Below are positions 17,449-47,493 of a DNA stretch of 64,000 nucleotides, piece after piece (within the stretch, counting starts at the first letter, position 1; every line of letters starts with the position of its first letter). The stretch comes from Planctomycetaceae bacterium. Lineage in GTDB: Bacteria > Planctomycetota > Phycisphaerae > Phycisphaerales > SM1A02. The stretch is from contig JBIQHI010000004.1 in assembly GCA_044508635.1 (NCBI GenBank), positions 5,476-69,475 of the forward strand, in the 5' to 3' direction. Position numbers and translations under genes: made by a program. A model generated the notes under the pieces. It made no database searches and was not told the origin of the DNA. It saw only the letters and a list, made by a program, of their open reading frames with translations.

Positions 17449-18398
<950 letters not shown>

Positions 18399-30784: not shown

Positions 30785-30833
30785 TAAAAAAAAGACCGCG
30801 CCCCTCGGACAATGAGCGTGACGGGGCGCGGTC
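30785..30833 (-). terminator. strong Rho-independent terminator ending the pseudopilin operon
   Basis: The minus strand has a perfect 11-bp stem GACCGCGCCCC-N18-GGGGCGCGGTC followed by TTTTTTTTATT. It lies 34 nt after the stop at 30867. Confidence 0.8.
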
Positions 30834-30866: not shown

Positions 30867-33800
30867 TCAGTTCGGCAGCTTCTCCAGGTAAATGATTCGC
30901 GGCTTGTCGGCCGGGCTGTTCACGCGGCTGCGATCGACGAGCATCACATAGCGGCTGTCGTCGATGATGTATTCCGGATCGGTGGCGTCCCACACGCCCG
31001 ATTGCGGGTTCTGGCGGAAGCTGCGCACGCGGAAGTACACCGTGAACGTGTCGCTCGTCGTGGTGATGAGGTTGCTCATGCCCGCGAAGAGCAGGTTGTG
31101 TTCCTCGGCGTCGGCCGCGGCGCCGTCGCCTTCCTTTGCGTCCGGGGCGTTGGGCAGCGTGACATCGGTGCTGATGTACGAGGATTCGACGCCGGCGAGG
31201 CCGCTAATGATCTTGAAGGGCTCATCGGCGGCGAGTTCAAAGCTCCATGTCTTCTGATCCACGGACAGGTTGTTGAACTCGACGATGTTGCCGGTCCCTT
31301 CTTCGTTGAGCGTGAGCAGTTCGCCTTTGACAGCGAAGCCGCGCCCGCCGCGCATGAAGCCGGCGCCCGTCGCGCTGGTGCGACGATCGGTGTAATCCGG
31401 CCCCTTCGGGAAGCCGGTGCGCAGGCCGTTGACCGGCGAATCGTTTCCGTTGTACAGCTCGCGCGCCTGCACGATCGCCTCGGCCAACGCGCTGCGCGGC
31501 ATGTCGGAGAGGTTGAGGCCGGAGGCGCCGCTGCTATCCGCATGAATGATCCGGTTGGCGAAGGGCAGCATGCGCAGCACTTCCACCGGCGCGGTGTTGA
31601 TGTTGATGAGACCGTGCACGGGCAGGCCGGTGAACGCATGCGCCAGCCGGAACGCAGGCGGAATCTGCACCGCGGGCGGCGGCGGCGGCGCGGGAACGGG
31701 GTTGACGCCGGGACCATCCAGCGTGAACGCTTCGAGCACGCGCATCGCCGCGGGCAGCGCCGGCGGGATCACCTGCGGCAACACGCCGCTCGGCATCACG
31801 GCCAGCGGGCTGCCGTTCATCACGCTCTTGGGGCTGTAAGGATTGAGCCGGCCGACGCGCACGCGTTCGGCAAGCGGCGAGTTGCCAAGACGCTGCACTT
31901 CCGCCTGCATGGCTTCGGCGAAGGTGGTCACTGTCTTCTCATACCCGTTCGAGTTGGTGATGAGCAGTTCGTGGCTGACGCCGAAGACATTGAGCAATTC
32001 GCCGACCTGCTCGAACTCGCCGTCCTTCTGCAGCATCTGCAACGCGAACTCGAGGTTCTCGTTTCCGCCGGCGAAATCCTTGTCGGGGTATCCGTTGGCG
32101 TTGTTGTCGTGGTTGAAGCGAGCGGGGAACGCAGGATCGGAGCCGAAGGTGAACCTTGGCTGCGGACTCGCGGAATCCAGCGCGAAGATTTCTTCGCCCG
32201 TGGTCACTTCGTGGCTGGCGAAGATGTAGCGCGGGTTGTGCCACTTCATCTCGGGCCGGATGCCCCACGCCCGCTTCACGTGCGCCCACTGCGCCCAATA
32301 GCGGGACGCGGGGTTGGCGCCGGCGGTGACGTTGATGACGCCGGGCCAATCGACGCCGTCGCCGGGCTCGTTGCTGCAATCGCCGCTGGGCTCGGTATTG
32401 TTGAGGCGCGTCACGGCGGCGCGGAACGCGGGCTGGGCGCCAGGCGCAGGCGGCGGCGACCCCACCGGCGGCGGCGGTGGATCGAAGCGATCGATCACCA
32501 CACGCGCCACGCCGCCACCCGGCTTGAACGGATCCGCAACGACGCGCACAAGCTGAACGCCGTCGGTCGTCGCGGCCTGCGCGCCGAGGCCGGCGTCATA
32601 CCGCGCGCGATCCGTTGACCACACGCCGAAGGGTTCGACGTCGATGTAGATGATGTTGTTCTGATCGAGCCCCAGGGTGCGGGCCATCGTATCTTCGAAC
32701 GCCGCGCCGCCGAGATCGTCATCCATCAGCACAAGCGTAAGCGTGGTCGGCGTGCCGTTGGTCGCGGGCGGCAGCACGACTTGCGGCGCGCCTGGCCCCG
32801 TCGTGGCGCCGGTGAGCTGCGAAAGGTCGAACGACTGGCCGAACACTTCCACCTCAAAGTGCTCGTGCATCGGGATCGCCGGGTTGGAATTGCTAAGAAC
32901 GATCGGCGAGTCATACGGATTCGCAAGCTGCACGACGACGAAGGTGGTGTGGTCGGAATCGCCGCACACGATCCAATCGCCGGTCTGGATTGGCGCCCCG
33001 TTGTCATCGCTCGGGTGATTGTTGATCGCCTGTGTGCCGGCGTGGTAGACGTGACCGATCATCGCCTCGACGAGGAAGGGCTGCTTCTCCATGCCGTAGG
33101 CGCGCAGCTCGCCGCCGGGGTTCGCCTGCCCGGGGAGCAGATCGATGCGAACGGCTTCGGCGAGCGGCGCGTTGGCGTCGGTGTCGCTGTACGCCTTGAT
33201 GTTCGCCGCCAGCGACGCCGCCATGCGGTTCGCGCTGATGAGCGCCGTCGGCGTGATGCCGTAGTACGACTGCACGGCGTCCGGATCGAGCAGGCAGCGG
33301 CGCAACACCTGGTAGAGATACGTCTGATCGTCGGCGTTGAGGAAGTTGTCGCGGTTGTAGTTGCCGGACTGGGCGCGGAGATCAACCTTCTGCATCGCCA
33401 GTTGACGCGCGGTGGGATTGAGCTGCGACCAGTGCAGTTCATTCGGCAACCGACCGCTCGGCCACAACCACGGCGGGAGCAGATCGTTGCGCGTGGCGTT
33501 GTAGGTGGTCACCAGACGGCGCTTGTCGATGACGAGGCCGCGATTGGAGCGCTGGTCAAGGTACTCGGAGGACTCTTCGTGCTGTACACCGGCATGCATC
33601 AGTGTATTGGCAGTTGAGTCAGTCGCAGTGAGTGCGTATTCCAACCTACTGAATGACCACGGGTTGTTGTTGCCGTGGAACATACGCAACTCTAGCTCGT
33701 CGGCCACAGTGAAAGGCGTAAAGCCGCTCTGCGGATACGGCGTGTACGGGCCTTCTACGCCGACGTCTAGCCACCAGATCATTCGCTGCGCCTGGGTCGG

Positions 33801-35318
33801 CGACCAAGCGCCGATTCCAAGAGTTGGAACAAGTAAACCAACTTGTTGAATATGGCGCTGCCAGTACATCAGCGGGTTTGTAGACGGAGTGCCGAGGTAG
33901 TAATTGACGCTATCGATAGCAGCTCCGGGAATCGTCACAGAGTGGTTAGGGGAGTCGCAGAACCCCACTGAGTAGTTGTTGAGGTTCGCTACTTGCGGAA
34001 ATCCGATTGGTGGTGTCGTCGGATGCCCGACGAATGCAAGATCAGCCGGCGTTGTTCCCTTTGTCCGGGAGTCAGGCAAAAATTGCGTCGAATCTTCCGA
34101 CGGCACGAAGCGCGTTGCAACATTGACATTAGCCATACCGTTGTTATCAATGACCCGCACACCAACAATGGTCCGCACGCTGCGATCGATGGACGTGGGC
34201 GCGAGGAACCAGTATGAATCCGTGAAGCCGTCGCCGTCCGTATCACAAAGCACGCGGCTGACGAGATTGCGAGCCGTGCCCCTGATGAACTCGCTCTGCA
34301 TGGATTCCTGCGGAACGCCGCCGATGTTCCAGTTGAACTTGATGCCGTCGCCGTTGAGGTCGCTGAGCTGAAGGAACGTCGGCGGAATCCACTCGGGATC
34401 CGTGAACGAGTTGACGTAGCCCTGCGTCGGGTCGGAACTGAACCATCGGCTGAAGCGCTCGAAGAAGTTGCCGGGCACGCAGGGCAAACCGGCGGCGCTG
34501 ACCGCGCTGGCCCCAACGCCGCCCGGCCGAATGGCAAGGAACTGCTCGACGGGCAACGAGAGATCGGTGAGCACGCCGCCCCCGCCGATAGATTGATTGG
34601 CAAAGGTGACGGCGCCGGTGACGTCGCTGATGTCCTTGCACAGGCGATAGCCGTTGTTGGCGTGCGCGATGTAAGACATGTGCCGCCAGTGCGAGAAGAT
34701 GGTGATGTCGTCGGCGGTACCGAGCAGGCCGTCAAAGCCGGGCAAAACAAATCGCTGCGGTTCGAGGTCAGCGAGCCAGCGCGCGTCGTTCGTGCCGGGG
34801 TCGCCGATCGGGTTGTACTCGCCGAGGTCGGCGAGGATGGGATCGGCGACGGTGCCGTCCGGGTAACGATTGCGGCCATCGGTCGCCGGGAGCGCCGGAT
34901 TGAAAATCGGCAAGCCTGCGTCGGGCCAGTTCGTCCATGGGATGACTTCGTTCTGGCCGAGGTTGAAGCGAACGCCGTTGTTCAAATCAATCAGGTTCGG
35001 CCCGTGGCGCACGCTGTCCTGCGGGATAGGCAAGCGCGGCGTGTTTGCCAGGAAACGCTCGGGCGCGCCGGCGGAATAGTTGAACGGGCGCGCGAAGAGC
35101 GCTTCGGCGATGGAGGTCGCAAGATCGTTTGCGACGTTCGTCGCAATGGCTTCGCGCCCCTGCATGTACTGCTGCGAGGCGCCGGTGATGCGCGTGCCCT
35201 GCACGCGCGTGATGTACGCCGAGGCGATGATCACGAGCAGCACGAGAATCGCCGTCACGAGGATAAGCGAGTTCCCGCGGCGCGTGTGCTGAAGTTGGTT
35301 CGTGTTGCTGTGATTCAT
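30867..35318 (-). CDS. giant GspK-like minor pseudopilin (1483 aa)
   Basis: The ATG at 35318 is preceded by GGGGAG. The ORF extension to 35762 would overlap the upstream gene. The N-terminus RRGNSLILVTAILVLLVIIASAY is a pilin-like hydrophobic helix lacking Glu5, as in GspK. GLININTAPVEVLRMLPF lies near 31.6 kb, and the C-terminal SDTFTVYFRVRS lies near 31.05 kb. Both are GspK-type motifs. Confidence 0.75.
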   Translation of the reverse strand: MNHSNTNQLQHTRRGNSLILVTAILVLLVIIASAYITRVQGTRITGASQQYMQGREAIATNVANDLATSIAEALFARPFNYSAGAPERFLANTPRLPIPQDSVRHGPNLIDLNNGVRFNLGQNEVIPWTNWPDAGLPIFNPALPATDGRNRYPDGTVADPILADLGEYNPIGDPGTNDARWLADLEPQRFVLPGFDGLLGTADDITIFSHWRHMSYIAHANNGYRLCKDISDVTGAVTFANQSIGGGGVLTDLSLPVEQFLAIRPGGVGASAVSAAGLPCVPGNFFERFSRWFSSDPTQGYVNSFTDPEWIPPTFLQLSDLNGDGIKFNWNIGGVPQESMQSEFIRGTARNLVSRVLCDTDGDGFTDSYWFLAPTSIDRSVRTIVGVRVIDNNGMANVNVATRFVPSEDSTQFLPDSRTKGTTPADLAFVGHPTTPPIGFPQVANLNNYSVGFCDSPNHSVTIPGAAIDSVNYYLGTPSTNPLMYWQRHIQQVGLLVPTLGIGAWSPTQAQRMIWWLDVGVEGPYTPYPQSGFTPFTVADELELRMFHGNNNPWSFSRLEYALTATDSTANTLMHAGVQHEESSEYLDQRSNRGLVIDKRRLVTTYNATRNDLLPPWLWPSGRLPNELHWSQLNPTARQLAMQKVDLRAQSGNYNRDNFLNADDQTYLYQVLRRCLLDPDAVQSYYGITPTALISANRMAASLAANIKAYSDTDANAPLAEAVRIDLLPGQANPGGELRAYGMEKQPFLVEAMIGHVYHAGTQAINNHPSDDNGAPIQTGDWIVCGDSDHTTFVVVQLANPYDSPIVLSNSNPAIPMHEHFEVEVFGQSFDLSQLTGATTGPGAPQVVLPPATNGTPTTLTLVLMDDDLGGAAFEDTMARTLGLDQNNIIYIDVEPFGVWSTDRARYDAGLGAQAATTDGVQLVRVVADPFKPGGGVARVVIDRFDPPPPPVGSPPPAPGAQPAFRAAVTRLNNTEPSGDCSNEPGDGVDWPGVINVTAGANPASRYWAQWAHVKRAWGIRPEMKWHNPRYIFASHEVTTGEEIFALDSASPQPRFTFGSDPAFPARFNHDNNANGYPDKDFAGGNENLEFALQMLQKDGEFEQVGELLNVFGVSHELLITNSNGYEKTVTTFAEAMQAEVQRLGNSPLAERVRVGRLNPYSPKSVMNGSPLAVMPSGVLPQVIPPALPAAMRVLEAFTLDGPGVNPVPAPPPPPAVQIPPAFRLAHAFTGLPVHGLININTAPVEVLRMLPFANRIIHADSSGASGLNLSDMPRSALAEAIVQARELYNGNDSPVNGLRTGFPKGPDYTDRRTSATGAGFMRGGRGFAVKGELLTLNEEGTGNIVEFNNLSVDQKTWSFELAADEPFKIISGLAGVESSYISTDVTLPNAPDAKEGDGAAADAEEHNLLFAGMSNLITTTSDTFTVYFRVRSFRQNPQSGVWDATDPEYIIDDSRYVMLVDRSRVNSPADKPRIIYLEKLPN

Positions 35319-35355
35319 GATGAAGCTCCCCGCGTGCGCGAGGCGTGTTCGGAAC

Positions 35356-36948
35356 TCACCGCCCCACTCGCTGCGGAAGGCGCAGCACGATCTGCACGTC
35401 GCGGCCGTTGGGCAGGCGCGTGTTGACATCGTGCAGCGTGAGCGTGACGCGGACGGCGCTCGGCCAGGGCGTGTAGGCCATGTCAATATCTGGAAGGCCG
35501 GTGGCGGGATCGAGCGGCTGCGTCTGGTTGTAGCCGAAGATCGCTTCGTACACCTGCAGCGTCGGCGTATCGACCACGAGTTGCTCGATGTTCGCCGGAA
35601 AGATCGTTTCAATCGGACTGGGCGGCGAGAACGTGGAGAGCGGGAACGTGCCGCGCGCGTCGTTGCCGAGGTTGGGTAGTCCGAACCACGGCTGCTCGAA
35701 GGCCGGATCGAAATTGAAGCCGCGGAACTCGTTGCCGTTATTCGGCAGGCCGTCGCGATCAATGAAGCCGACGCCGTTCGCGTACGTCCAGTCGATGCGC
35801 ACGGAACTGCACGCCGAGCCGATCACGCTGTTGGTGAGCGCCTGATCGACGCGGTGCATGCTGGGCGCCTCGCGCTCGGCGCGGCGGTATTGCATGGTGT
35901 CCTCAATGCGGGTGCGCTGCGTGACGCCAGCGCCGAGCCACGGCAGCGCCGTTCCGCCGCTGAATTCCACGCGATTGCGCACCTGGTGCATTTGTGTGGC
36001 CGCGACATCCACACGGCCATCGCGGATTTGTGGGCTTCCCATTGCAATAAAGGGATCGTTCATAAAGATCGATCGTGCAGCCAGATTCTGCAAATACACT
36101 GTCTTTGAATTTGCGTTCGGCGCACTGTCATCATCGTCTGCAAGCAGCACTTGCTGTCGCAGAAGCAGCCATTGGTTCGGTGGCGGCTGGGTTGCATCAA
36201 CCGAAGGGCCGGGTTGCCGTTGAAATATGTCGGTCGCATTGCCGGTGCCAGCAATCGTACGAAATCGAGTCAGCACCATCGGAAGATTGGCATTATGCGT
36301 CCAAGGGTTGATCTCAGGGCCGCCGAAAATGTCGATCGAGGGCAGAGACGGGCTCGCGTCATGCGCTAAGCCGTTGTTCGCTCCTTGAGCCGAAAACGGA
36401 TCAGCATTCGGGAGTTGGAACCCATGTCCAAAATAGACGAAGGAGACCGTCGCTTCTCCCTTGTGATACAAATTTTCGCTCATGCGAAAGGTCTGGGCAC
36501 TTGCGAGAGAATTGGTGAAATACACCATCTGATCGGCGCGGAAGAAATGATTCGGCGAGAGCGACGGATCGAGCAGATCGTTGACGCCGTTGATGTCGTT
36601 GCGCACGCGCACCTGGCGGATGGCGAAGAAGCCTTCCGGCGCGATGGTGGTGAAATCCTGGCGAAGCTGGCGCTCGATGGTCGTCGCTTCCTGCATCACG
36701 TCCGTCGTCGCTTCGCTCAATCCCGTCACTTTCGTCACGGTGTCGAAGATCTTGCCGGCGGCGGCGATGACGACGAGCAGCACGACGACGGCGATCATCA
36801 GTTCCGTCAGCGTGAACGCGCGGCGAGAGAACGACCAGCGCGATCCTCGAAGACTCGTCACGCGCGGCTTCCGTACGAGGGGCATCGCCCACCGGATTTC
36901 GCCGGTTGCCTTGCTGCCCTGACGCCTTGATGCCTTCCGATTCATCAC
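35356..36948 (-). CDS. prepilin-type N-terminal cleavage/methylation domain protein (oversized minor pseudopilin, 530 aa)
   Basis: The N-terminus ...SRRA/FTLTELMIAVVVLLVVIAAAG has Phe+1 and Glu+5. The start GTG 36948 or ATG 36945 overlaps the upstream stop (GTGATGA). Confidence 0.85.
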   Translation of the reverse strand: MMNRKASRRQGSKATGEIRWAMPLVRKPRVTSLRGSRWSFSRRAFTLTELMIAVVVLLVVIAAAGKIFDTVTKVTGLSEATTDVMQEATTIERQLRQDFTTIAPEGFFAIRQVRVRNDINGVNDLLDPSLSPNHFFRADQMVYFTNSLASAQTFRMSENLYHKGEATVSFVYFGHGFQLPNADPFSAQGANNGLAHDASPSLPSIDIFGGPEINPWTHNANLPMVLTRFRTIAGTGNATDIFQRQPGPSVDATQPPPNQWLLLRQQVLLADDDDSAPNANSKTVYLQNLAARSIFMNDPFIAMGSPQIRDGRVDVAATQMHQVRNRVEFSGGTALPWLGAGVTQRTRIEDTMQYRRAEREAPSMHRVDQALTNSVIGSACSSVRIDWTYANGVGFIDRDGLPNNGNEFRGFNFDPAFEQPWFGLPNLGNDARGTFPLSTFSPPSPIETIFPANIEQLVVDTPTLQVYEAIFGYNQTQPLDPATGLPDIDMAYTPWPSAVRVTLTLHDVNTRLPNGRDVQIVLRLPQRVGR

Positions 36949-40841: not shown

Positions 40842-40902
40842 GCGTCACTCCTGGTCGTTCAGCGCCGCACAGCTGCGGCGGCGCTTCGTTGCCTCGATCG
40901 CG

Positions 40903-42198
40903 TCACTTCACCGAGCCGCTGACGGATTCGATCATCTTGACGAGCGGCATGAAGAGCGCGAGCACGATCGTGCCGATGATGCCGCCGAGCACGACGACCA
41001 TCAGAGGCTCGAGCAGCGCCACAAGGCTCTGCACCGCGACGTCCACTTCCTCGTCGTAGTTGTCCGCGATTTTGATGAGCATGGTGTCGAGGTCGCCGGT
41101 CTCTTCGCCGACGTCGATCATGTTGACGACGATGGGATCGCACACCTTCGATTCGCGCAGCGGCCCGGCGAAGCTTTCGCCCTCACGGATCGAGTCATGC
41201 ACTTTCGTGAGCGCCTTCTCGTACACGTAATTGCCCGACGTGTCGCGGGTGATCATGATCGCTTCGAGAATCGGCACGCCTGCTGAAATCAGCGTACCCA
41301 GCGTTCGCGTGAAGCGCGCAATGGAGGTTTTGCGCATGAGCGGGCCGACGAGCGGAATGCGCAATCGCACAATGTCCGTTACCGCCCTTCCGGGATTCGT
41401 CTTTCGTATCAACTTGAAGAAGATGAACAGCACAAAGGGCGAGGCGAGAATCACCACCCATCCCGGCACGACCTGATTCGGGCTTGCGGTGCCGGCCACC
41501 CAGTGGCTGGTGTTGATGAGCCAGAGCGTGATGCCGGGCAGCTCGATCTCGAAGTCGTTGAAGATTTCCTGGAACTTCGGGATGACGTAGTACATGATGC
41601 CCGTGACGATGAGCACGGCGACGGAGATCACCACGGTGGGATAGATCATCGCGCCCTTGATGCGCCGGCGCAGTCGCTGCGACTTCTCCATGAAGTTGGC
41701 GAGTCGCTGAAGGATGACGTCAAGCACGCCGCCGATTTCGCCGGCGTTCACCATTTTGCAATACAGGCGATCGAACGCCTTGGGATGCTTGGCGAACGCG
41801 TCGGAAAGCGTGGAACCGGCTTCGACGTCCTCGGCCACCTGCGAAAGGATCGCCTTCAGAAGGCCGGGCTTCTGCTGGTTCTCAAGAATCTGGATGGAGC
41901 GAAGGAGCGGCAAGCCGGCGTCCTGCAGCGTGGACATCTGCCGCGTGAAGTTCGTGAGCTTCTTGCGACCGACGCCGCCAATCGCCAGCGCGGACATGCC
42001 GCTGCGCTTCTTCTTTTTCTTCAGCGCCCCGGCGCCCCGCACCGCGGAACTGCCCTTCACCTTCTGCTCGCGCACGGAGGTGGGGAAGAAACCCTGGCTC
42101 TTGATGCGTTGCACGGCTTCTTCGCTGCTGCCGGCTTCGATCGTTCCCTTCTGCGGCTTGCCGGCTGAATTCAACGCTTCATAGGCATAGGTGGGCAT
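40903..42198 (-). CDS. gspF: type II secretion / type IV pilus platform protein (GspF/PilC family)
   Basis: 431 aa starting MPTYAYEALNSAGKPQKGTIEAGSSEEAVQRIKSQGFFP. It has two T2SSF repeats and 3 TM segments. Confidence 0.92.
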   Translation of the reverse strand: MPTYAYEALNSAGKPQKGTIEAGSSEEAVQRIKSQGFFPTSVREQKVKGSSAVRGAGALKKKKKRSGMSALAIGGVGRKKLTNFTRQMSTLQDAGLPLLRSIQILENQQKPGLLKAILSQVAEDVEAGSTLSDAFAKHPKAFDRLYCKMVNAGEIGGVLDVILQRLANFMEKSQRLRRRIKGAMIYPTVVISVAVLIVTGIMYYVIPKFQEIFNDFEIELPGITLWLINTSHWVAGTASPNQVVPGWVVILASPFVLFIFFKLIRKTNPGRAVTDIVRLRIPLVGPLMRKTSIARFTRTLGTLISAGVPILEAIMITRDTSGNYVYEKALTKVHDSIREGESFAGPLRESKVCDPIVVNMIDVGEETGDLDTMLIKIADNYDEEVDVAVQSLVALLEPLMVVVLGGIIGTIVLALFMPLVKMIESVSGSVK

Positions 42199-42254
42199 GG
42201 GTCACTCCATCTCAAAGCGTGCGTGTCATCATGGATCCGCTCACGCCGCCGTCT

Positions 42255-44033
42255 TTACTCTTCCTCGCTGATCGTCTCGCGAATGACTTCGTCGATCGTG
42301 GTCTGGCCTTCGAAAAGCGCGAGCAGGCCGCTCTCGCGCAGCGATCGCATGCCGCGCTTGCGGGCCTCGGCGCGCAGCAGGTTCGTGGAGGCGTGCTGCA
42401 TGACGAGCTCGCGCAGCGTGTCGTCGAGCTGCATGATTTCGAAGATGGCCATGCGGCCCTTGTACCCGCTGCCGTTGCACGTATCGCAGCCGCGGCCGCG
42501 GAACAGCGTGCGGCCTTCGATGTCGGAGCGCTTGAGCTGCAACTCCATCAACTGCTCATCTGTGGGCGCGAACGCTTCCTTGCAGTTGACGCAAATGCGC
42601 CGCACGAGCCGCTGCGCGATGATGGCTTCGATCGTCGCAGTGAGCAGGAAGTCATCCATGCCGAGATCGAGCAGACGCAGAATCGACGACGGCGCATCGT
42701 TGGTGTGCAATGTCGAAAACACAAGGTGGCCGGTGAGCGACGCCTGCACGGCGATCTGCGCGGTTTCGAGATCGCGGATTTCGCCGACGAGGATGATGTC
42801 CGGATCCTGGCGAAGGAACGATCGCAACAGCCGTGCGAATGTGAGTTGCTGCTCGGTGTTCACCTGGCACTGAATCAGGCCGTCGATGTCGTATTCGACG
42901 GGGTCTTCCGCGGTGAGAATCTTCGTGGTGGGCTCGTTGAGTTCGCTGAGCGCCGCATAGAGCGTGGTCGTCTTGCCGGAGCCTGTGGGACCGGTGACGA
43001 TCAGAATGCCGTTGGGCTTGTTGATGAGGTGGCGCATCTGCTCGAGCTCATCCGCGCGGAGGCCGATGCGATCGAGCGAAAGCTGTACGTTGGAGCGGTC
43101 GAGCACGCGCATCACGACCGACTCGCCGAACATCGTCGGCAGCACGGAAACGCGGAGATCGACCGGCGCGTTGCCCACGGTGAGTTCGATGCGGCCGTCC
43201 TGCGGCAGGCGGCGCTCCGCGATGTCGAGATTCGCCATGACCTTGATGCGCGAGACGATCGGCAGCGCGAGGTGCTTGGGCGGCGGGATCATTTCGTACA
43301 GCACGCCGTCGATGCGGTAGCGCATCTTGAATTCGTCTTCGAACGGCTCGAAGTGAATGTCCGACGCCTTGTCCTTGATCGCCTGCAGCAGCACGAGGTT
43401 GATGAGGCGAATGACCTTGTTGTCGCCCGCGGCTTGCGCGAGTTCTTCGAGGTCAATGGATTCGCCCCGGCCGCGCAAGCTGGCGAGAGAATCCGCTTCG
43501 TCCAGTTCGGAAATGACTTCCGCCATGGACGTCGCCTTGCCGCTGTATCGCTTCTGCAGCACCTTGTCGATCTGGTCCGCCGGCGCCACGACCGCTTCGA
43601 CGTTGAAGCCCATGAGCAGGCGGAGGTCGTCAACAGCCCGGAAGTTGTCCGGGCTTTTCATCGCGATCGTGATGGCACGTCGGCCGGCGTCGAAGGCGAT
43701 GGGCACGATCTGATAGGTCTGCGCCGTTTCCGCCGGAAGGGCGTCGATGGCTTCGTTCGAGATCTGCTCTTCCCGAATCTGCACCATGCGCATGCCGGCC
43801 TGGCCCGCGCGGGCTTCGAGGACATCAGCTTCGGTGATGTAGCCGAGGCTGACAAGGAGCTGGCCGATCGGTTCCTTGCGGGTCTTCTGAAGCTGAAGCG
43901 CCTCGTGAACCTGGTCGCGCGTCACCCTGCCGAGCTTGGTCAGGATGCGGCCGAGGCGCCGACCCTTCAGTTCCGAAGGATCAACGCCGCCTGCGCCCTT
44001 CACGCCCACCCCTTTGCCGGGATCTTTCGCCAT
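42255..44033 (-). CDS. gspE: GspE/PilB-family assembly ATPase (copy 1)
   Basis: 592 aa. N-terminal MshEN/T2SSE_N-like LGRILTKLGRVTRDQVHEALQLQ, Walker A GPTGSGKTT, Asp/His boxes, and the tetracysteine CVNC...CDTC. Confidence 0.92.
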   Translation of the reverse strand: MAKDPGKGVGVKGAGGVDPSELKGRRLGRILTKLGRVTRDQVHEALQLQKTRKEPIGQLLVSLGYITEADVLEARAGQAGMRMVQIREEQISNEAIDALPAETAQTYQIVPIAFDAGRRAITIAMKSPDNFRAVDDLRLLMGFNVEAVVAPADQIDKVLQKRYSGKATSMAEVISELDEADSLASLRGRGESIDLEELAQAAGDNKVIRLINLVLLQAIKDKASDIHFEPFEDEFKMRYRIDGVLYEMIPPPKHLALPIVSRIKVMANLDIAERRLPQDGRIELTVGNAPVDLRVSVLPTMFGESVVMRVLDRSNVQLSLDRIGLRADELEQMRHLINKPNGILIVTGPTGSGKTTTLYAALSELNEPTTKILTAEDPVEYDIDGLIQCQVNTEQQLTFARLLRSFLRQDPDIILVGEIRDLETAQIAVQASLTGHLVFSTLHTNDAPSSILRLLDLGMDDFLLTATIEAIIAQRLVRRICVNCKEAFAPTDEQLMELQLKRSDIEGRTLFRGRGCDTCNGSGYKGRMAIFEIMQLDDTLRELVMQHASTNLLRAEARKRGMRSLRESGLLALFEGQTTIDEVIRETISEEE

Positions 44034-44464
44034 GCCGTCGCCTCTCTGGCTCGCGGAAAGGAGCCGTCCAAATCACACTTGCGGATGCATCAACTGATGA
44101 GCATCTGACCCGTCACCTGCTCCCCCTTCAGCCCGGGCGCGTTGAGCGCCGCGGGCGAGTAACTCCGGTCCCCCTTCCCCCCGTACACCAATCGAGTGGC
44201 GTGAATTGATGCACAGTCGCGCTGGCGAGCTGTTAGACCATTCGCCAAACGATGACCGATCGGTTCCAATGACGCCAGCCGTTCTGTCCATTCCTAATGA
44301 TAGGACATCTGGTTTTTGTGATGGATAACGACCGATGATGTTTGGCACGGAGGCCCCGGCCCGACCCGCTGGCGTTGGCGTGTTTGGGTCCAAACGGGTT
44401 CGTAAGACTCCCTCTCTGGCGGTTCGGGCTGGTTTGGAACCGCGGCTTTGGGCGGTGCAAATGC

Positions 44465-45586
44465 TTACGCCACAGGGCCGTCCGCATCCTCATCCAGCTC
44501 GACGCGGCCAACCTTGCGGCCAGCCCGGTGGACCTTTTCGGTGAGCTCGCCGGGGTCCTTGCTCTTGTCAATCATTTCATCCGCGTTGATGAGTCCCTTG
44601 CTGTACAGCGACCACAAATGGTCGTCCAGCAACTGCATGCCGAACTTCCGACCGGTCTGGATGGCGGAGTCGATGCGGAAGGTCTTGTTCTCACGGATGA
44701 GGTTCGCGATGGCGGGCGTCACGACGAGGAACTCGTAAGCGGCCACTCGCCCGGGCTTGTCGGCCCTTGCCAGAAGCACCTGGCTCAAGACGCAGATGAG
44801 CGACACCGAGAGCTGCACGCGGACCTGGGCCTGCTGGTTGACGGGGAAGGCGTCGATGATTCGATTGATGGTGCCCGCGGCCCCGGTGGTGTGCAGCGTG
44901 GCGAACACGAGGTGGCCGGTTTCCGCCGCGCGGATCGCCGCTTCGATCGTCTCAAGGTCGCGCATTTCGCCGACGAGAATCACGTCGGGGTCGGCACGCA
45001 GCACGCGTCGCAGCGCTTCGGAGAAGCTTGGCACGTCCACGCCGACTTCGCGCTGATTGACGATCGACTTCTTGTGATAGTGGTAGTACTCGATCGGATC
45101 CTCGGCCGTCACGATGTGGCGATCGAGGTTGATGTTGATGTAGTCGATCATCGTGGCGAGCGACGTGGTCTTGCCGGAGCCCGTCGGGCCGGTGACGATG
45201 AAGAGACCGCGCGGCCGGCGGATCAGTTCCTTGCAGATCGGCGGCAGACCGATTTCCTCGAACGTGAGCAGCCGGTTGGGAATGAGACGCAAGACGATGG
45301 AGATGTCGCCGCGCTGGCGGAAGACGGCGACGCGGAAGCGAGCTTCGGTGCCGTAGGCGAAGCCGAAGTCGCAGCTTCCTTCTTCCTGCAGTTCCTGCTG
45401 GGCTCGTTCGGGGGTGATGGACTTCATGAGCGCCACGCAGTCATCCGAATCGAGCACCTTGGTGTCGAGGTTGCGCAGCGAACCGTTGAGACGAAGCGTG
45501 GGCTTGCGTCCGACACTGATGTGAAGGTCGGAAGCGCCCTGGCGGATGACGGTATCGAGAAGGCGGTCGATTTGGATCGTTGACAT
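44465..45586 (-). CDS. pilT: PilT-family retraction ATPase
   Basis: 373 aa starting MSTIQIDRLLDTVIRQGASDLHISVG. Walker A GPTGSGKTT is present, and the PilT signature context is PAIANLIRENK (AIxNLIRE). Confidence 0.92.
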   Translation of the reverse strand: MSTIQIDRLLDTVIRQGASDLHISVGRKPTLRLNGSLRNLDTKVLDSDDCVALMKSITPERAQQELQEEGSCDFGFAYGTEARFRVAVFRQRGDISIVLRLIPNRLLTFEEIGLPPICKELIRRPRGLFIVTGPTGSGKTTSLATMIDYININLDRHIVTAEDPIEYYHYHKKSIVNQREVGVDVPSFSEALRRVLRADPDVILVGEMRDLETIEAAIRAAETGHLVFATLHTTGAAGTINRIIDAFPVNQQAQVRVQLSVSLICVLSQVLLARADKPGRVAAYEFLVVTPAIANLIRENKTFRIDSAIQTGRKFGMQLLDDHLWSLYSKGLINADEMIDKSKDPGELTEKVHRAGRKVGRVELDEDADGPVA

Positions 45587-45641
45587 CGAAGGAATCCTGA
45601 CATCCGGGCCAGTTCAGGCGTGCCCGGCGACAATCATCATC

Positions 45642-47372
45642 TCAATCTGGAACAAGCACGGAAACATCCATCTGTGCGAACTTCGAAACTTCCTGCGGCG
45701 TGGTGTCGCCCCGCAGAATCTTGATCTTGCCGTCGAGCAGCAGGTTGCGCATGCCGCTGCGAAGGGCCGCGGCACGAATCTTGGACAGGGAAGCCCGCTC
45801 AAACGCAAGTTGCCGAATTTCAGAATTCATGCGCATCAGCTCGAAGATGGCCTTGCGGCCGCGATAGCCGATGTTGCCGCAATTGACGCAGCCGACGGGA
45901 TCGCAAATGTTGCCGCTGGCGATTTCGTCGTCGGTGATGCCGAGCAGGCGCATCACGCGCGGATCGTGCTCGGTCGCACGCTGCTTGCACCGCGGACAGA
46001 GGATGCGGATGAGACGCTGGGCCATGATCGCCTGGATCGAGCTGGCGACGAGGAACGGCTTGACGCCCATGTCGATCAAGCGCGTGATCGCCGAGGGCGC
46101 ATCGTTGGTGTGCAGCGTGGAGAACACGAGGTGACCGGTGAGCGCCGCCTGGATGGCGATTTCAGCGACTTCGCGATCGCGGATTTCGCCGATGAGCACG
46201 ATGTTCGGCGCCTGACGCAGCATGGCGCGGAGAATGGACGCGAACGTGAGGCCGATCGAATCGCGCACCTGGCACTGGTTGATGCCCGTGAAGTTGTATT
46301 CCACGGGGTCTTCCGCAGTGATGATCTTGCGGTCTGGCCGGTTGAGCACATCCAGCGCGGAGTAGAGCGTGGTGGTCTTGCCTGAACCGGTCGGGCCGGT
46401 GACGAGGAAGATGCCCGTGGGCCGGCGGATGATGCGGTTGAAGATTTCGAGGTTGTCGGGCTCGAAGCCGAGGTTGGCGAGACCGATCTTCACCGACTCC
46501 GGCCGCAGAATACGCAATACGATCGACTCGCCGTGATAGGCGGGACAAATGCTGACGCGGAAGTCGATGGGCTCTCCGTCCACCGGCAGCTTGATGCGGC
46601 CGTCCTGCGGCACGCGGCGCTCGGCGATGTTCACGCCCGCCATCAGTTTGAGACGCGCGAGAAGCGCGCCCTGCATGCGCTTCGGCAGGTTGTCGCGCAC
46701 GTGGCACACGCCGTCGATGCGGTAGCGCAGCATCACGCGGTCCGCCATGGGTTCCACGTGAATATCCGACGCGCGGCTGCGCACCGCTTCCGTGATCATG
46801 CGGTGCACGAGCCGGATGATGGGCGCATCTTCGCCGGCCGCAATATCCACCGACGCGTCGACGGAGCGGTCGACCGTGACGTCCACCGACTCGGTGACAA
46901 GCGACTGATCGGAGAACATGCGGACCGCGCCGCCGGCCCCGCCCGCGCCGCCATCGATCACCGCCTTGATCATGGATCTGGGCGCGATCGCCGTATCAAT
47001 CTCCGAGTTCAGGCGGAAGCGGAGCAGGTCGAGCAGCTCCAGATCCATGGGGTCATGGATGATGAGGCGCAGCCGGCCGTTGCGTTTGCTCAAAGGCAGC
47101 ACGAGGTGCTTGCGCGCGAGGTCCTCGGGGATGAGGGACATGTCGAGCTGCGAGCGCGCGTCGGGCGCGCCGAGGTCGATGTATTCAAGATCGAACTGCG
47201 CAGCGAGCGCCTTGGCCACGTCATCTTCCTTGACGAAGCCGGCTTCGATGAGCGCCTCGCCGATGCGCTTGCGCGAACTGGCCGCAAGAGCCATGGCTTG
47301 CTGGAGCTGCGGTTCGGTGACCTTGCCCCACTCGGAAAGAATTTCGCCAAGTTTCTTGCGCTTTCGAGCCAT
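45642..47372 (-). CDS. GspE/PilB-family assembly ATPase (copy 2)
   Basis: 576 aa. N-terminal LGEILSEWGKVTEPQLQQAMALAA, Walker A GPTGSGKTT, and the tetracysteine CPRC...CVNC. Confidence 0.92.
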   Translation of the reverse strand: MARKRKKLGEILSEWGKVTEPQLQQAMALAASSRKRIGEALIEAGFVKEDDVAKALAAQFDLEYIDLGAPDARSQLDMSLIPEDLARKHLVLPLSKRNGRLRLIIHDPMDLELLDLLRFRLNSEIDTAIAPRSMIKAVIDGGAGGAGGAVRMFSDQSLVTESVDVTVDRSVDASVDIAAGEDAPIIRLVHRMITEAVRSRASDIHVEPMADRVMLRYRIDGVCHVRDNLPKRMQGALLARLKLMAGVNIAERRVPQDGRIKLPVDGEPIDFRVSICPAYHGESIVLRILRPESVKIGLANLGFEPDNLEIFNRIIRRPTGIFLVTGPTGSGKTTTLYSALDVLNRPDRKIITAEDPVEYNFTGINQCQVRDSIGLTFASILRAMLRQAPNIVLIGEIRDREVAEIAIQAALTGHLVFSTLHTNDAPSAITRLIDMGVKPFLVASSIQAIMAQRLIRILCPRCKQRATEHDPRVMRLLGITDDEIASGNICDPVGCVNCGNIGYRGRKAIFELMRMNSEIRQLAFERASLSKIRAAALRSGMRNLLLDGKIKILRGDTTPQEVSKFAQMDVSVLVPD

Positions 47373-47493
47373 GTCTCCATCCTGCGCGCGACCGGGCGGC
47401 GCTGACGCCCTGCTTCAAGTGAAGCCGAACACGGTAGTATTGACCGGCAGGCGAGAAGCCGCAACCGGAGCGCCGAAGGTCGGCAAAGGCACC

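What the first reader, a model, noticed from the sequence alone, without database searches (positions are those of the whole stretch)
30867..47372. Secretin-less T2SS/T4P hybrid operon: two GspE-type ATPases, PilT, one GspF, five oversized pseudopilins and a giant GspK-like protein
Seen in sequence: ten co-directional minus-strand genes run in the order ATPase(E2)-pilT-ATPase(E1)-gspF-pseudopilin x5-giant K-like. The four junctions between the five pseudopilin genes are 4-nt stop/start overlaps, and the K-like gene follows after a 37-nt gap. The string ends at a strong terminator (30785..30833). All three ATPases keep Walker A GPTGSGKTT, and both E-type copies keep the tetracysteine. Established knowledge: canonical T2SS operons have one GspE, no PilT, and carry GspC/D/L/M(/O). 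T4aP systems pair PilB/PilT with PilMNOPQ. Pseudopilins are normally about 120-250 aa and GspK about 330 aa. Here they are 293-530 aa and 1483 aa. No secretin, GspC/L/M, PilMNO or prepilin peptidase is visible anywhere in the 64 kb. Inference: this is a retractable pseudopilus or fibre with a very large tip complex. It may export or display the many dockerin-tagged hydrolases encoded around it, or act as an adhesion or uptake fibre. I cannot tell from memory whether this exact architecture has been characterised.
Basis: partly seen in the sequence, partly recalled or inferred. Interest (0 to 1): 0.85.

Follow-up and report, generated by a model that had tools for sequence, protein, structure and literature searches.

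The report
Phycisphaerales pilus operon with giant cap
This is a real ten-gene operon, conserved in an uncultured group of aquatic planctomycetes, that most likely builds a retractable type IV pilus-like fibre from unusually large subunits capped by a 1,483-residue protein with no solved-structure match; nobody seems to have described it, but it is a variant of a known machine, not a new kind.

Summary
Ten minus-strand genes (30867-47372) encode two PilB/GspE-type ATPases, PilT, a PilC/GspF platform, five 293-530 aa pilin-like proteins and a 1,483 aa protein, ending at a strong terminator.

All three ATPases look catalytically intact. Both long ATPases carry tandem MshE-type c-di-GMP-binding motifs and match type IVa PilB over their full length. 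The last protein has a 56-residue pilin-like N-terminal helix without Glu5. Its confident AlphaFold models have no PDB or viral neighbour. It matches GspK and 'Verru_Chthon cassette protein A' only weakly.

The order pilT-E1-F-five pilins-giant recurs in every related locus with enough flank. All 58 such loci come from Phycisphaerales or other planctomycete MAGs. E2 is seen upstream wherever the flank reaches that far.

Best reading: the inner-membrane core and fibre subunits of a lineage-specific, retractile, c-di-GMP-gated type IV filament with a giant tip subunit.

'Secretin-less' is shown only for the locus. Type IVa systems usually keep pilMNOPQ and pilD elsewhere, and I could not scan whole genomes.

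The link to dockerin-tagged hydrolases is not syntenic. However, a reprolysin-like metalloprotease sits just downstream in about 7 of 37 loci, which keeps a secretion role alive.

I found no publication on it. It is a new variant of a known kind.

The parts
45642..47372 (-). E2: PilB/MshE-type hexameric ATPase paralogue 2 (576 aa)
   Evidence: Pfam T2SSE 4e-129 plus MshEN. NCBIfam best hit is PilB (592 bits, below the equivalog cut-off). The MshE-related c-di-GMP motif NF053729 scores 54 bits against a cut-off of 38. Full-length match to Myxococcus and Geobacter PilB in PDB. Walker A, GEIRD, TGH and 2xCxxC are present. Orthologues are 75-90% identical in more than 120 clusters; 118 of 120 keep the catalytic motifs and 119 of 120 keep the first N-terminal motif used as anchor.
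44465..45586 (-). PilT retraction ATPase (373 aa)
   Evidence: NCBIfam TIGR01420 pilT_fam scores 444 bits against a cut-off of 319. No N-terminal MshEN domain and no CxxC pairs. Orthologues that reach the locus edge are 76-92% identical.
44034..44464 (-). 431-nt untranslated spacer between pilT and E1; possible internal promoter or regulatory region
   Evidence: No plausible ORF. No Rfam family. A spacer of variable length, about 100-930 nt, is present in most relatives, but the start-codon picks are uncertain. L004 carries a 241-aa ORF at this position.
42255..44033 (-). E1: PilB/MshE-type hexameric ATPase paralogue 1 (592 aa)
   Evidence: Pfam T2SSE 2e-141 plus MshEN. NCBIfam PilB 630 bits versus GspE 623 bits, both just below their cut-offs; c-di-GMP motif 49.6 bits against a cut-off of 38. 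Best PDB hits are full-length PilB 5zfr, 6olj and 3jc8. 41% identical to E2. Tandem 24-aa MshEN-type motifs at residues 26-78.
40903..42198 (-). PilC/GspF inner-membrane platform protein (431 aa)
   Evidence: Pfam T2SSF, two stretches, 6e-66. NCBIfam PilC (Myxococcus type) 400 bits is about equal to GspF 394 bits, both below their cut-offs. Orthologues are 65-82% identical.
39801..40841 (-). pp1: pilin-like protein, 346 aa; candidate main fibre subunit (inferred)
   Evidence: Class III signal sequence RAG|FTVVE, conserved as [GA]F[ST]xxE in 28 orthologues. Its profile matches the alpha1 helix of major pilins (Geobacter PilA 6e-08, Thermus PilA4, PilE, GspG) and nothing beyond residue ~65. First gene after the platform gene. 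The family has 507 members, all planctomycete, named only generically.
38923..39804 (-). pp2: pilin-like protein, 293 aa
   Evidence: RPG|FTLVE. N-terminus matches GspG at 3e-08, below the cut-off. Motif conserved in orthologues. ATGA overlap with pp1.
38018..38926 (-). pp3: pilin-like protein, 302 aa (GspH/FimU position)
   Evidence: TRS|FTLVE. N-terminus gives weak hits to Verru_Chthon cassette protein D (2e-08) and GspH. Its profile matches only pilin alpha1 helices in PDB.
36945..38021 (-). pp4: pilin-like protein, 358 aa (PilV/GspI position)
   Evidence: RRA|FSLIE. Pfam N_methyl above its cut-off. N-terminus matches TIGR02523 PilV at 3e-07. Nothing in PDB beyond alpha1.
35356..36948 (-). 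pp5: pilin-like protein, 530 aa (GspJ/PilW position), with an unusually long ~40-aa leader if the annotated start is right
   Evidence: RRA|FTLTE at residues 42-49. Pfam N_methyl above its cut-off. Motif conserved in orthologues. Nothing in PDB beyond alpha1.
30867..35318 (-). Giant terminal subunit (1,483 aa): a pilin-type N-terminal helix without Glu5 plus ~1,400 aa with no match to any solved structure
   Evidence: N-terminus RRG|NSLILV..., where position +5 is Leu, nearly invariant in the family. AlphaFold: helix 17-72; N-half pLDDT 79 and pTM 0.73; C-half pLDDT 83 and pTM 0.87. Foldseek against PDB and BFVD gives nothing below E 0.4. Profile search of PDB sequences gives nothing relevant. 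Weak hits: Verru_Chthon_A in 28 of 31 homologues (best 1.7e-05) and GspK in 8 of 31 (best 0.003). Pfam T2SSK matches only the NINTAP motif. More than 160 homologues of 1,337-2,583 aa, all called 'hypothetical' and all planctomycete. The C-terminal ~90 aa occur in 767 cluster representatives, in proteins up to 3,219 aa.
30786..30833 (-). Intrinsic terminator closing the operon
   Evidence: 11-bp GC-rich stem GACCGCGCCCC/GGGGCGCGGTC, 18-nt loop, then T8. The scan tool flags the inner part of it.
47373..47490 (.). Divergent intergenic region between E2 and a CoaBC/DFP-like gene; presumed operon promoter (inferred)
   Evidence: The DFP domain lies in the + strand ORF 46918-48177, from residue 200. 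The same divergent DFP-E2 arrangement is seen in L064 and L065. No sigma-70-type consensus was found.
28247..30451 (-). Reprolysin-like (M12B) zinc metallopeptidase directly downstream; possibly associated, not part of the core
   Evidence: Pfam Reprolysin_3/4/5. HELGHLWGASH at residue 365. A different Reprolysin+FG-GAP_2+dockerin subfamily sits downstream on the same strand in six loci: directly after the giant gene in L014, L027, L036 and L047, close behind it in L030, and about 5 kb away in L057.

Best explanation
The ten genes encode the cytoplasmic-membrane motor and all the fibre subunits of a type IV filament machine specific to Phycisphaerales. It is closest to type IVa pili.

Proposed mechanism:
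- The PilC-like platform, together with two PilB/MshE-type hexameric ATPases, pulls pilin subunits out of the inner membrane and polymerises them. Both ATPases look catalytically intact, and both carry tandem MshE-type c-di-GMP-binding motifs, so extension is probably gated by c-di-GMP.
- PilT takes the fibre apart again, so the fibre extends and retracts.
- Five pilin-like proteins of 293-530 aa carry conserved class III signal peptides with Glu5. They need a prepilin peptidase encoded elsewhere.
- By gene order, and by N-terminal similarity only, the pilins occupy the G, G', H, I/PilV and J positions. The first one or two would form the fibre body. The later ones would form the priming and tip complex.
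- The last protein has a pilin-type N-terminal helix without Glu5, as the cap subunits GspK and PilX do. It therefore sits at the very tip. There it exposes about 1,400 residues of fast-evolving, size-variable module with no solved-structure match, which most likely binds a surface or a polymer.

What is shown: domain identities, intact motifs, conserved order, lineage restriction, and the absence of a PDB or BFVD match for the two modelled halves of the cap protein.

What is inferred: which pilin is the major one, the tip location of the giant protein, c-di-GMP gating, the ligand, and that the outer-membrane conduit, the PilMNO-type alignment proteins and the peptidase are encoded elsewhere.
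For: - Domain calls for all ten genes.
- PilT is above NCBIfam's pilT_fam cut-off.
- Both long ATPases match PilB over their full length, and GspE aligns only after their N-terminal extension.
- The MshE-type motif is above its cut-off in both. It has the layout of two 24-residue motifs joined by a 5-residue spacer. In E2 orthologues the first motif, used as the anchor, is found in 119 of 120, and the consensus over the whole 53-residue stretch is well conserved.
- Catalytic motifs are intact in E1, E2 and PilT and in 118 of 120 E2 orthologues.
- The [GA]F[ST]xxE signal motif is conserved in the orthologues of all five pilins.
- Pilin profiles match the alpha1 helix of type IV pilins.
- The giant protein has a predicted 56-residue N-terminal helix, G at -1 and a nearly invariant Leu at +5. 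It gives weak GspK and Verru_Chthon_A hits.
- The gene order is conserved in every related locus with enough flank, out of 58 species-level genomes, while the outer flanks differ.
- Motor proteins are 60-92% identical across loci, but the pilins and the giant only 23-47%. That is the pattern expected for surface-exposed parts.
- Established knowledge: PilB-PilT-PilC is the core operon order in Myxococcus, Geobacter and cyanobacteria. Minor pilins H-I-J-K prime and cap T2SS pseudopili and type IVa pili, and carry PilY1 at the tip.
Against: - No alignment-complex genes (PilM/N/O or GspL/M), secretin or prepilin peptidase lie in the window or in any conserved flank. The machine as encoded here is therefore incomplete by type IVa or T2SS standards.
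- All equivalog-level NCBIfam scores for PilB, GspE, PilC and GspF fall below their cut-offs.
- The pilins' globular parts and the giant protein match nothing known. The H/I/J/K assignments are positional, apart from short N-terminal similarities.
- No fibre has been seen, because all carriers are MAGs.
- A recurrent metalloprotease gene just downstream fits a secretion role at least as well as adhesion.
Confidence: 0.6

Rival explanations
1. It is a T2SS-like secretion machine. A short pseudopilus made of the five pilins and capped by the giant K-like protein pushes folded exoproteins, such as the adjacent metalloprotease, out through an outer-membrane channel encoded elsewhere.
For: - The gene order E-F-G-(G')-H-I-J-K is the canonical gsp order.
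- pp1 and pp2 N-termini hit GspG best, and the giant protein gives weak GspK hits.
- On the ATPase core alone, E1 scores slightly higher against Vibrio EpsE (412 bits) than against Thermus PilF (376 bits).
- A reprolysin-like zinc metallopeptidase lies downstream on the same strand in the window, L014, L027, L036, L047, L030 and L057.
- Established knowledge: T2SS substrates, often metalloproteases such as StcE or SslE, are frequently encoded next to their gsp operon.
Against: - A conserved PilT inside the operon has no place in a T2SS.
- GspC, D, L and M are absent from the window and from all conserved flanks.
- The ATPases carry an MshE/PilB-type N-terminal extension in front of the region that aligns with GspE.
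- The peptidase neighbour is present in only about 7 of 37 loci, and in the window it lies behind a strong terminator.
- The window's other hydrolase neighbours are not conserved.
Confidence: 0.2
2. It is an enzyme-display fibre. The oversized globular parts of the pilins, or the giant cap, act as docking sites for the many GC-type dockerin-tailed hydrolases of these bacteria. The retractile fibre would carry enzymes to a substrate and reel the products back.
For: - GC-type dockerin tails are present in window genes 4004-6403 and 61233-62930, and weakly in 2160-3758.
- Dockerin-tailed ORFs occur in the flanks of 13 related loci. Several are the gene directly after the giant gene.
- To my knowledge, no cohesin partner for these dockerins is known.
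- Planctomycetia have 6- and 12-nm fibres that bind dextran, and the genes for them are unassigned in that paper (PMC5394234).
Against: - No cohesin or other dockerin-binding domain was detected in any of the ten proteins by Pfam, or in the giant protein by Foldseek.
- Dockerin-tailed genes make up about 10% of flank ORFs, at variable distance and strand, which may simply be their genomic background.
- The immediate neighbours in the window lack dockerins.
Confidence: 0.08
3. It is a DNA-uptake (competence) pilus. A retractile fibre binds extracellular DNA through its tip and pulls it into the periplasm.
For: - PilB, PilT, PilC and minor pilins are what transformation pili of diderm bacteria use (established knowledge).
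- The conserved NINTAPxEVLRxLP stretch of the giant protein resembles a helix-hairpin-helix start. There is one weak HHH_3 hit among 31 homologues.
Against: - No comEA, comEC or dprA lies in the window or in the conserved flanks.
- The HhH-like motif is the one that GspK proteins also have.
- A 1,400-3,200 aa size-variable cap is not a feature of known competence pili.
Confidence: 0.05

Closest known systems
Type IVa pilus machinery (Myxococcus xanthus, Geobacter, Pseudomonas aeruginosa: PilB-PilT-PilC, minor pilins FimU/PilV/W/X plus PilY1)
   Same: - Full-length PilB-type ATPases with an MshEN-type N-domain, a PilT above its family cut-off, and a PilC-like platform.
- The core order pilB-pilT-pilC (established knowledge).
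- An array of pilin-like proteins followed by a very large terminal protein.
- A pp4 N-terminus that resembles PilV.
   Different: - Two PilB paralogues flank pilT.
- No pilMNOPQ, pilD or tsaP in the locus.
- The pilins are two to three times the usual size, with globular parts that match nothing.
- The big terminal protein is itself a pilin-type subunit (N-terminal helix, no Glu5) rather than a non-pilin like PilY1. It shows no PilY1 fold or sequence match.
Type II secretion system (Gsp/Eps/Xcp)
   Same: - Gene order E-F-G-H-I-J-K.
- A last subunit without Glu5 that has the NINTA motif of GspK.
- Tetracysteine ATPases.
   Different: - No GspC, D, L, M or O.
- PilT is present.
- There are two ATPases, each with an extra c-di-GMP-type N-terminal extension.
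- The K-like protein is about 4.5 times longer than GspK and falls below every GspK threshold.
'Verru_Chthon cassette' of Verrucomicrobia (NCBIfam/TIGRFAM TIGR02600 protein A and TIGR02596 protein D, plus proteins B and C recalled from memory); uncharacterised
   Same: - Same superphylum (PVC).
- A cassette of pilin-like proteins plus a ~1,300 aa protein A.
- 28 of 31 homologues of the giant protein hit the C-terminal end of the protein A model (best 1.7e-05).
- The pp3 N-terminus hits protein D (2e-08).
   Different: - Scores are far below the family cut-offs (11-34 bits against 70-332).
- No hits to other cassette-protein models appeared in the scan of the ten proteins.
- The relationship is at most that of a distant superfamily.
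- That cassette has no known function either.
MSH pilus ATPase MshE and other MshEN-domain ATPases
   Same: Two 24-residue c-di-GMP-binding motifs joined by a 5-residue spacer at the N-terminus of both E1 and E2. NF053729 is above its cut-off in both.
   Different: The rest of the MSH locus (mshI-Q, mshA-D) is not present. Binding has not been tested.
Com pseudopilus operon of Gram-positive bacteria (comGA-GG)
   Same: A compact operon with only an ATPase, a platform and pilins. It has no secretin and no PilMNO genes.
   Different: The hosts here are diderm planctomycetes. PilT and a second ATPase are present. The pilins and the cap are very large.

Membership tests
Type IV filament superfamily (generic TFF: ATPase + platform + pilin) | PilB/GspE-family ATPase, PilC/GspF platform, and at least one protein with a class III signal peptide, encoded together | tested here: met
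   Pfam T2SSE x3, T2SSF, and N_methyl in five ORFs. The signal motif is conserved in orthologues.
Type IVa pilus | Extension ATPase PilB at equivalog level | tested here: inconclusive
   TIGR02538 is the best model for both E1 (630 bits) and E2 (592 bits), but the cut-off is 676. Best PDB hits are full-length PilB.
Type IVa pilus | Retraction ATPase PilT | tested here: met
   TIGR01420 scores 444 bits against a cut-off of 319.
Type IVa pilus | Alignment complex PilM/N/O/P and secretin PilQ | tested here: not met
   None in the 64-kb window. No recurrent gene family of that kind in the flanks of the related loci. A genome-wide search was not possible with these tools.
Type IVa pilus | Prepilin peptidase PilD (Peptidase_A24) | tested here: not met
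   No Peptidase_A24 hit in the window. It is often encoded elsewhere. The rest of the genome could not be tested.
Type II secretion system | GspC, GspD (secretin), GspL and GspM alongside GspE, GspF and GspG-K | tested here: not met
   No such domains in the window or in the conserved flanks.
Type II secretion system | A single GspE and no retraction ATPase | tested here: not met
   Two E-type ATPases plus a conserved PilT.
GspK / T2SSK minor pseudopilin | Match to the family model above threshold (Pfam PF03934, NCBIfam NF037980) | tested here: not met
   Window protein: E 0.048, 13 bits against a cut-off of 130. Eight of 31 homologues hit, best E 0.003. Pfam hits cover only model positions 1-16 of 63.
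GspK / T2SSK minor pseudopilin | Pilin-type N-terminal hydrophobic helix with Gly at -1 but no Glu at +5; last gene of the pilin array | tested here: met
   RRG|NSLIL, with Leu at +5 nearly invariant. Predicted helix at residues 17-72. Last gene in every locus examined.
GspK / T2SSK minor pseudopilin | GspK fold (as in the GspI-J-K complex, PDB 3CI0, recalled from memory) | tested here: inconclusive
   Foldseek of both 1,000-residue half-models against PDB gave no hit below E 0.4. The domains could not be searched separately.
PilY1 tip adhesin | C-terminal PilY1 beta-propeller, by sequence or by fold | tested here: not met
   No PilY1 hit by profile search of PDB sequences, by Pfam or NCBIfam, or by Foldseek.
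Verru_Chthon cassette (TIGR02600 A, TIGR02596 D) | Scores above the family cut-offs for the cassette proteins | tested here: not met
   Protein A: 11.5 bits against 332 for the window protein, with weak hits in 28 of 31 homologues. Protein D: 34 bits against 70 for pp3. No other cassette-protein model appeared among the hits.
MshEN c-di-GMP receptor domain | Tandem 24-residue motifs at the N-terminus, with a match to the domain model above its cut-off | tested here: met
   NF053729 scores 54.2 bits (E2) and 49.6 bits (E1) against a cut-off of 38. The motifs with their 5-residue spacer were located in both. The motif region is conserved in E2 orthologues. Actual binding cannot be tested here.

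The most novel reading that the evidence does not exclude
The operon builds a thick, retractile fibre that does not use a conventional secretin. From subunits of about 35 kDa I estimate a diameter of roughly 9-10 nm; this is my own rough inference. Such a fibre, with a compact cap of more than 150 kDa, may be too wide for a standard secretin channel. The oversized pilins or the giant cap would serve as the missing docking partner for the GC-type dockerin-tailed hydrolases of Phycisphaerales, for example the Reprolysin-FG-GAP-dockerin peptidase encoded right behind the operon in several lineages. That would make it a retractable, enzyme-armed 'fishing line' for polymers. It could also give a genetic handle on the unexplained polymer-binding fibres of planctomycetes.
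Probability: 0.08. Interest if true: 0.9.

Novelty: new variant of a known kind. Interest (0 to 1): 0.6.

Why it matters
Type IV filaments are among the most widespread bacterial surface machines. Their variants have repeatedly turned out to have distinct functions, including motility, secretion, DNA uptake and adhesion.

This variant is conserved across dozens of species of abundant aquatic Phycisphaerales. It combines several features not described together:
- twin c-di-GMP-type extension ATPases bracketing PilT;
- pilins two to three times the usual size;
- a cap subunit of 1,300-3,200 residues with no solved-structure match.

It bears on three open questions. How do planctomycetes, which have enlarged periplasms and unexplained polymer-binding fibres, capture macromolecules? 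How large a cargo or tip can a type IV filament carry through an outer membrane? What do the many dockerin-tailed proteins of these bacteria dock onto?

The giant protein family and the five pilin families are currently annotated only as 'hypothetical' or with generic T2SS labels. Naming the module would improve the annotation of hundreds of MAGs.

Tried and rejected
- A single-sequence scan of GTDB genomes with the giant protein found nothing.
- A profile search of PDB sequences with the giant family gave only spurious S16 hits.
- Foldseek of both half-models against PDB, and of the C-half against viral structures, found no neighbour.
- Profile searches of PDB with pp1, pp3, pp4 and pp5 found only the alpha1 helix. 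The WD40-like hits for pp3 are many weak repeats and I reject them. The pp2 alignment failed on a stop codon in one reference and was not repeated.
- Rfam found nothing in the operon, at gathering thresholds or with a permissive search of the pilT-E1 spacer. This rules out, for example, a c-di-GMP riboswitch of a known class there.
- L064 (closed genome CP070772.1) at first looked like a core-only locus without the pilin cassette. In fact the pp1 orthologue runs into a stretch of N, so the locus is uninformative.
- I tested whether the window's peptidase and hydrolase neighbours are conserved next to the operon. They are not.
- I tested whether dockerin-tailed genes are specifically linked. 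They recur in 13 loci but make up about 10% of flank ORFs, so enrichment cannot be judged.
- The window's reprolysin is not detectably homologous to the downstream reprolysins of other loci, beyond shared Pfam family and the HExxH motif.
- Literature searches for this architecture found nothing: Planctomycetes or Phycisphaerae with T4P/T2SS/secretin terms, and 'Verru_Chthon cassette'. The pili reported for Singulisphaera (and, by that paper's citation, Fimbriiglobus) are Tad-type. A 2025 review of the phylum does not mention pilins, T4P or secretins.

Full report
**1. What is in the sequence**

They coincide with NCBI's gene calls on the source record, contig JBIQJJ010000001.1 (857,599 bp) of assembly GCA_044507575.1.

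Pfam gives these results:
- T2SSE on 45642-47372 (E2, 576 aa), 44465-45586 (373 aa) and 42255-44033 (E1, 592 aa).
- An MshEN domain on both long ATPases.
- T2SSF on 40903-42198.
- The N-terminal methylation motif on all five following ORFs of 346, 293, 302, 358 and 530 aa. It is above Pfam's cut-off in pp4 and pp5, and below it in pp1-pp3.
- Nothing on the last ORF of 1,483 aa.

The junctions are as reported. There are three ATGA overlaps. The fourth is a GTGA overlap, or a 1-nt overlap if NCBI's ATG start is correct. A 37-nt gap precedes the giant gene. An 11-bp GC stem followed by T8 lies at 30786-30833.

Walker A (GPTGSGKTT), the GE(I/M)RD region and the TGH box are intact in all three ATPases. 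Both long ATPases have two CxxC pairs.

It has no Rfam match.

Pfam scans of all other large ORFs in the 64 kb found peptidases, a pst/pho cluster, thiamine genes, a citrate transporter and other genes. They found no secretin, no A24 peptidase, no PilM/N/O and no GspC/L/M.

**2. The motor proteins**

The 373-aa ATPase is a PilT. TIGR01420 scores 444 bits against a cut-off of 319.

E1 and E2 are 41% identical to each other. For both, the best NCBIfam model is type IVa PilB, closely followed by GspE, and both scores are below the equivalog cut-offs.

In PDB they align over their full length with Geobacter and Myxococcus PilB (5zfr, 6olj, 5tsg, 3jc8). Vibrio GspE/EpsE aligns only from about residue 119 (E1) or 177 (E2) onward.

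The extra N-terminal part matches NCBIfam's 'MshE-related c-di-GMP-binding' domain above its cut-off in both proteins, at 54 and 50 bits against 38. The sequence shows two 24-residue motifs joined by a 5-residue spacer, at E2 residues 7-59 and E1 residues 26-78.

E2 orthologues are 75-90% identical in more than 120 protein clusters. Of 120 checked, 119 keep the first N-terminal motif I used as an anchor, and the consensus across the whole 53-residue stretch is well conserved. 118 of 120 keep all catalytic motifs. Neither paralogue is degenerate.

The platform protein scores about equally against PilC and GspF models.

So the motor is of the PilB/MshE-PilT-PilC kind rather than the GspE-GspL kind. 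'GspE-type' in the finding's title needs that correction.

**3. The pilin-like proteins**

All five have a class III signal sequence with Glu at +5: RAG|FTVVE, RPG|FTLVE, TRS|FTLVE, RRA|FSLIE and RRA|FTLTE. The motif [GA]F[ST]xxE is conserved in the orthologues I extracted from related loci.

N-terminal similarities suggest positions in the array:
- pp1 and pp2 resemble GspG.
- pp3 resembles GspH and Verru_Chthon protein D.
- pp4 resembles PilV.
- pp5 shows only the generic methylation motif.

Profiles built from 28-33 orthologues match only the alpha1 helix of type IV pilins in PDB: Geobacter PilA, Thermus PilA4, PilE, Myxococcus PilA and GspG. They match nothing beyond about residue 65.

The G-G'-H-I-J reading therefore rests on gene order and short N-terminal similarity. 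The large globular parts are unique to this lineage. The pp1 family has 507 detectable members, all planctomycete, labelled 'PulG' or 'type II secretion system protein' at best.

**4. The giant protein**

It begins ...RRG|NSLILVTAILVLLVII. In the family alignment, Gly at -1 is conserved in the consensus, and position +5 is a nearly invariant Leu rather than Glu. That is the hallmark of cap subunits such as GspK; this comparison comes from established knowledge.

I modelled two overlapping 1,000-residue halves with AlphaFold, using 69-sequence alignments:
- N-half: pLDDT 79, pTM 0.73, with one continuous helix at residues 17-72, as in pilins.
- C-half: pLDDT 83, pTM 0.87.

Foldseek found no PDB neighbour below E 0.4 for either half, and no viral neighbour for the C-half. 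A family profile found nothing relevant among PDB sequences, which include GspK and PilY1.

The only links to known families are below threshold:
- 28 of 31 homologues hit the C-terminal end of TIGR02600, 'Verru_Chthon cassette protein A' (best E 1.7e-05).
- 8 of 31 hit NCBIfam GspK (best E 0.003), around the conserved GLININTAPxEVLRxLP stretch.
- Pfam T2SSK hits cover only the first 14-16 model positions.

More than 160 homologues of 1,337-2,583 aa were found. All are 'hypothetical', have no Pfam domain, and come from Phycisphaerae or other planctomycete MAGs.

The C-terminal ~90 residues are the most conserved part. They occur at the end of proteins of up to 3,219 aa, in 767 representative clusters.

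I call the protein 'K-like' only in the functional and positional sense. It fails the GspK membership tests that I could run.

**5. Conservation and context**

An alignment-based scan of one genome per GTDB species returned 58 loci. All are MAGs labelled as Phycisphaerae, Phycisphaerales or other Planctomycetota, or left unclassified, and many isolate names point to lake or marine samples.

In every locus with enough upstream flank, the order is pilT-E1-F-pp1-pp2-pp3-pp4-pp5-giant. Where the flank reaches further, E2 precedes pilT. A CoaBC/DFP-like gene diverges from E2 in the window and in two other genomes.

Identities to the window proteins across those loci:

| Protein | Identity |
|---|---|
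| PilT | 76-92% |
| E1 | 59-80% |
| Platform (F) | 65-82% |
| Five pilins | 23-47% |
| Giant | 25-38% |

This is the pattern expected when the motor is constrained and the exposed parts evolve quickly.

None of the window's own neighbours (tricorn-like protease, M14 peptidases, the GH114-associated protein, the FHA protein) is conserved next to the operon elsewhere.

Clustering all flank ORFs found only two kinds of recurrence. One is housekeeping synteny within subclades. The other is a heterogeneous group held together by C-terminal dockerin repeats: 16 of 159 ORFs, in 13 loci.

GC-type dockerin tails do exist in the window, at 4004-6403 and 61233-62930 and weakly at 2160-3758. They are not on the operon's immediate neighbours.

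The one recurrent neighbour with a shared function is a reprolysin-like (M12B, HExxHxxGxxH) metallopeptidase downstream of the giant gene on the same strand. It is present:
- in the window, at 28247-30451, behind the terminator;
- as a different Reprolysin+FG-GAP_2+dockerin subfamily directly after the giant gene in L014, L027, L036 and L047, and close behind it in L030;
- about 5 kb downstream in L057.

That amounts to about 7 of 37 loci, spread over at least four or five lineages.

**6. Interpretation**

The module is a member of the type IV filament superfamily. It contains the motor, the platform and all the fibre subunits.

PilT, the PilB/MshE-type architecture of both long ATPases, and the pilB-pilT-pilC core order point to a retractile, type IVa-like fibre rather than a T2SS piston. 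The core order is known from Myxococcus, Geobacter and cyanobacteria (established knowledge). The E-F-G-H-I-J-K arrangement of the fibre genes is the one shared by T2SS and by type IVa minor-pilin operons.

The last subunit combines two features. It has a cap-type pilin helix, and it has a mass comparable to or larger than PilY1. The simplest model is therefore a fused 'cap plus adhesin' at the fibre tip.

Two MshE-type N-domains suggest that extension responds to c-di-GMP.

Why two extension ATPases are kept is unresolved. They are 41% identical, and E2 is the more conserved within the lineage. Possible explanations are separate homohexamers for priming versus elongation, or for different subunits.

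I put 0.6 on this overall model. The ligand and the major-pilin assignment are inference.

**7. 'Secretin-less'**

This is true for the locus and for the flanks of its relatives. However, type IVa systems are typically split over several loci, so the claim about the organism is untested.

I could not scan the source genome or the closed relatives for secretin, PilMNO or PilD, because the collection scans were exhausted.

The question matters for a physical reason. Subunits of about 35 kDa would give a fibre roughly 1.5 times wider than a normal type IV pilus. This is a rough inference of my own and is not shown.

**8. Rivals**

- T2SS-like secretion role, 0.2. It is kept alive by the gsp-like gene order and by the recurrent downstream metalloprotease. 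T2SS substrates are often encoded beside their system.
- Enzyme display through dockerins, 0.08. This is the most novel reading. It has no positive sequence evidence, since no cohesin-like domain was found.
- DNA uptake, 0.05. There is little to support it.

**9. Novelty**

I found no paper that describes this operon, the giant family or the oversized pilins.

Boedeker et al. 2017 (PMC5394234) showed dextran-binding fibres of 6 and 12 nm in Planctomycetia without naming the genes. The pili discussed for chitin attachment in Planctomycetia are Tad-type. A 2025 review of the phylum does not mention pilins, T4P or secretins. Denise et al. 2019 (PMC6668835) would probably class such a locus as 'generic', or exclude it as mixed.

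It is a new variant of a known kind. It is clearly interesting to people who work on type IV filaments and on planctomycete cell biology. It is known only from MAGs and has no function demonstrated. I score interest at 0.6.

Noticed in passing
window 28247-30451; L014 6635-10462; L027 16478-19528; L036 16102-19287; L047 16381-19371; L030 ~16411-17514; L057 22542-24188: A reprolysin-like (M12B, HExxHxxGxxH) metallopeptidase gene lies downstream of the giant gene on the same strand, in the window and in six related loci. It follows directly in L014, L027, L036 and L047, and lies about 5 kb away in L057. In the six loci it carries FG-GAP_2 repeats and a dockerin tail, and it belongs to a different subfamily from the window's copy. 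That makes about 7 of 37 loci with downstream flank.
   Followed up: partly
window 4004-6403, 61233-62930, 2160-3758, 59589-61229: Several secreted-looking proteins end in 'FQPPPDGxVDAADLAxLLGxWGxC' repeats: a choice-of-anchor B protein, a PMP-repeat protein, an M23 peptidase and an HAF-repeat protein. NCBIfam calls this a GC-type dockerin, above its cut-off in two of them and weakly in a third. The binding partner of these tails is unknown to me.
   Followed up: partly
window 847-1158: An 87-bp unit is repeated 3.6 times in tandem (91% matches). Each unit contains an internal hairpin, CACGACTCG...CGAGTCGTG. It lies inside a 301-aa ORF (284-1189) that has no Pfam hit and is probably not a real gene.
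   Followed up: no
window 28247-30451 and 26150-28162: The reprolysin-like peptidase and the next gene, a GH114-associated-domain protein, share a ~90-residue C-terminal module (...NYIRxxNRDVRxR...GNTTxPF...VxxVE...). It could be a common sorting or binding domain.
   Followed up: no
window 44034-44464; L004 209-934: The spacer between pilT and E1 is 431 nt in the window and has no ORF and no Rfam match. In relatives it appears to range from about 100 to 930 nt, though start-codon picks are uncertain. One relative (L004) has a 241-aa ORF without Pfam domains at this position.
   Followed up: partly
window ~47491-48177 (+); L064 9130-9816; L065 9114-9875: A CoaBC/DFP-like gene is divergently transcribed from E2 in the window and in two distant genomes. 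This is the only conserved neighbour on the upstream side.
   Followed up: partly
window 36826-36948 (N-terminus of pp5): pp5 would have an unusually long leader of about 40 residues before its cleavage motif if the annotated start is right. An internal Met 22 residues in is an alternative start.
   Followed up: no
L064 ~17045-17150 (CP070772.1): In this 'complete' MAG the pp1 orthologue runs into a stretch of N, and unrelated genes follow. The pilin cassette may be lost in an assembly gap or a masked stretch at this point.
   Followed up: partly
window 359-367 of the giant protein (about nt 34218-34244): The motif DxDGDGFTD is invariant (D359, G362, G364, T366, D367). It gives weak FG-GAP, TSP3 and EF-hand hits in some homologues, which suggests a calcium site. 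PilY1 is also regulated by a calcium site (from memory).
   Followed up: no
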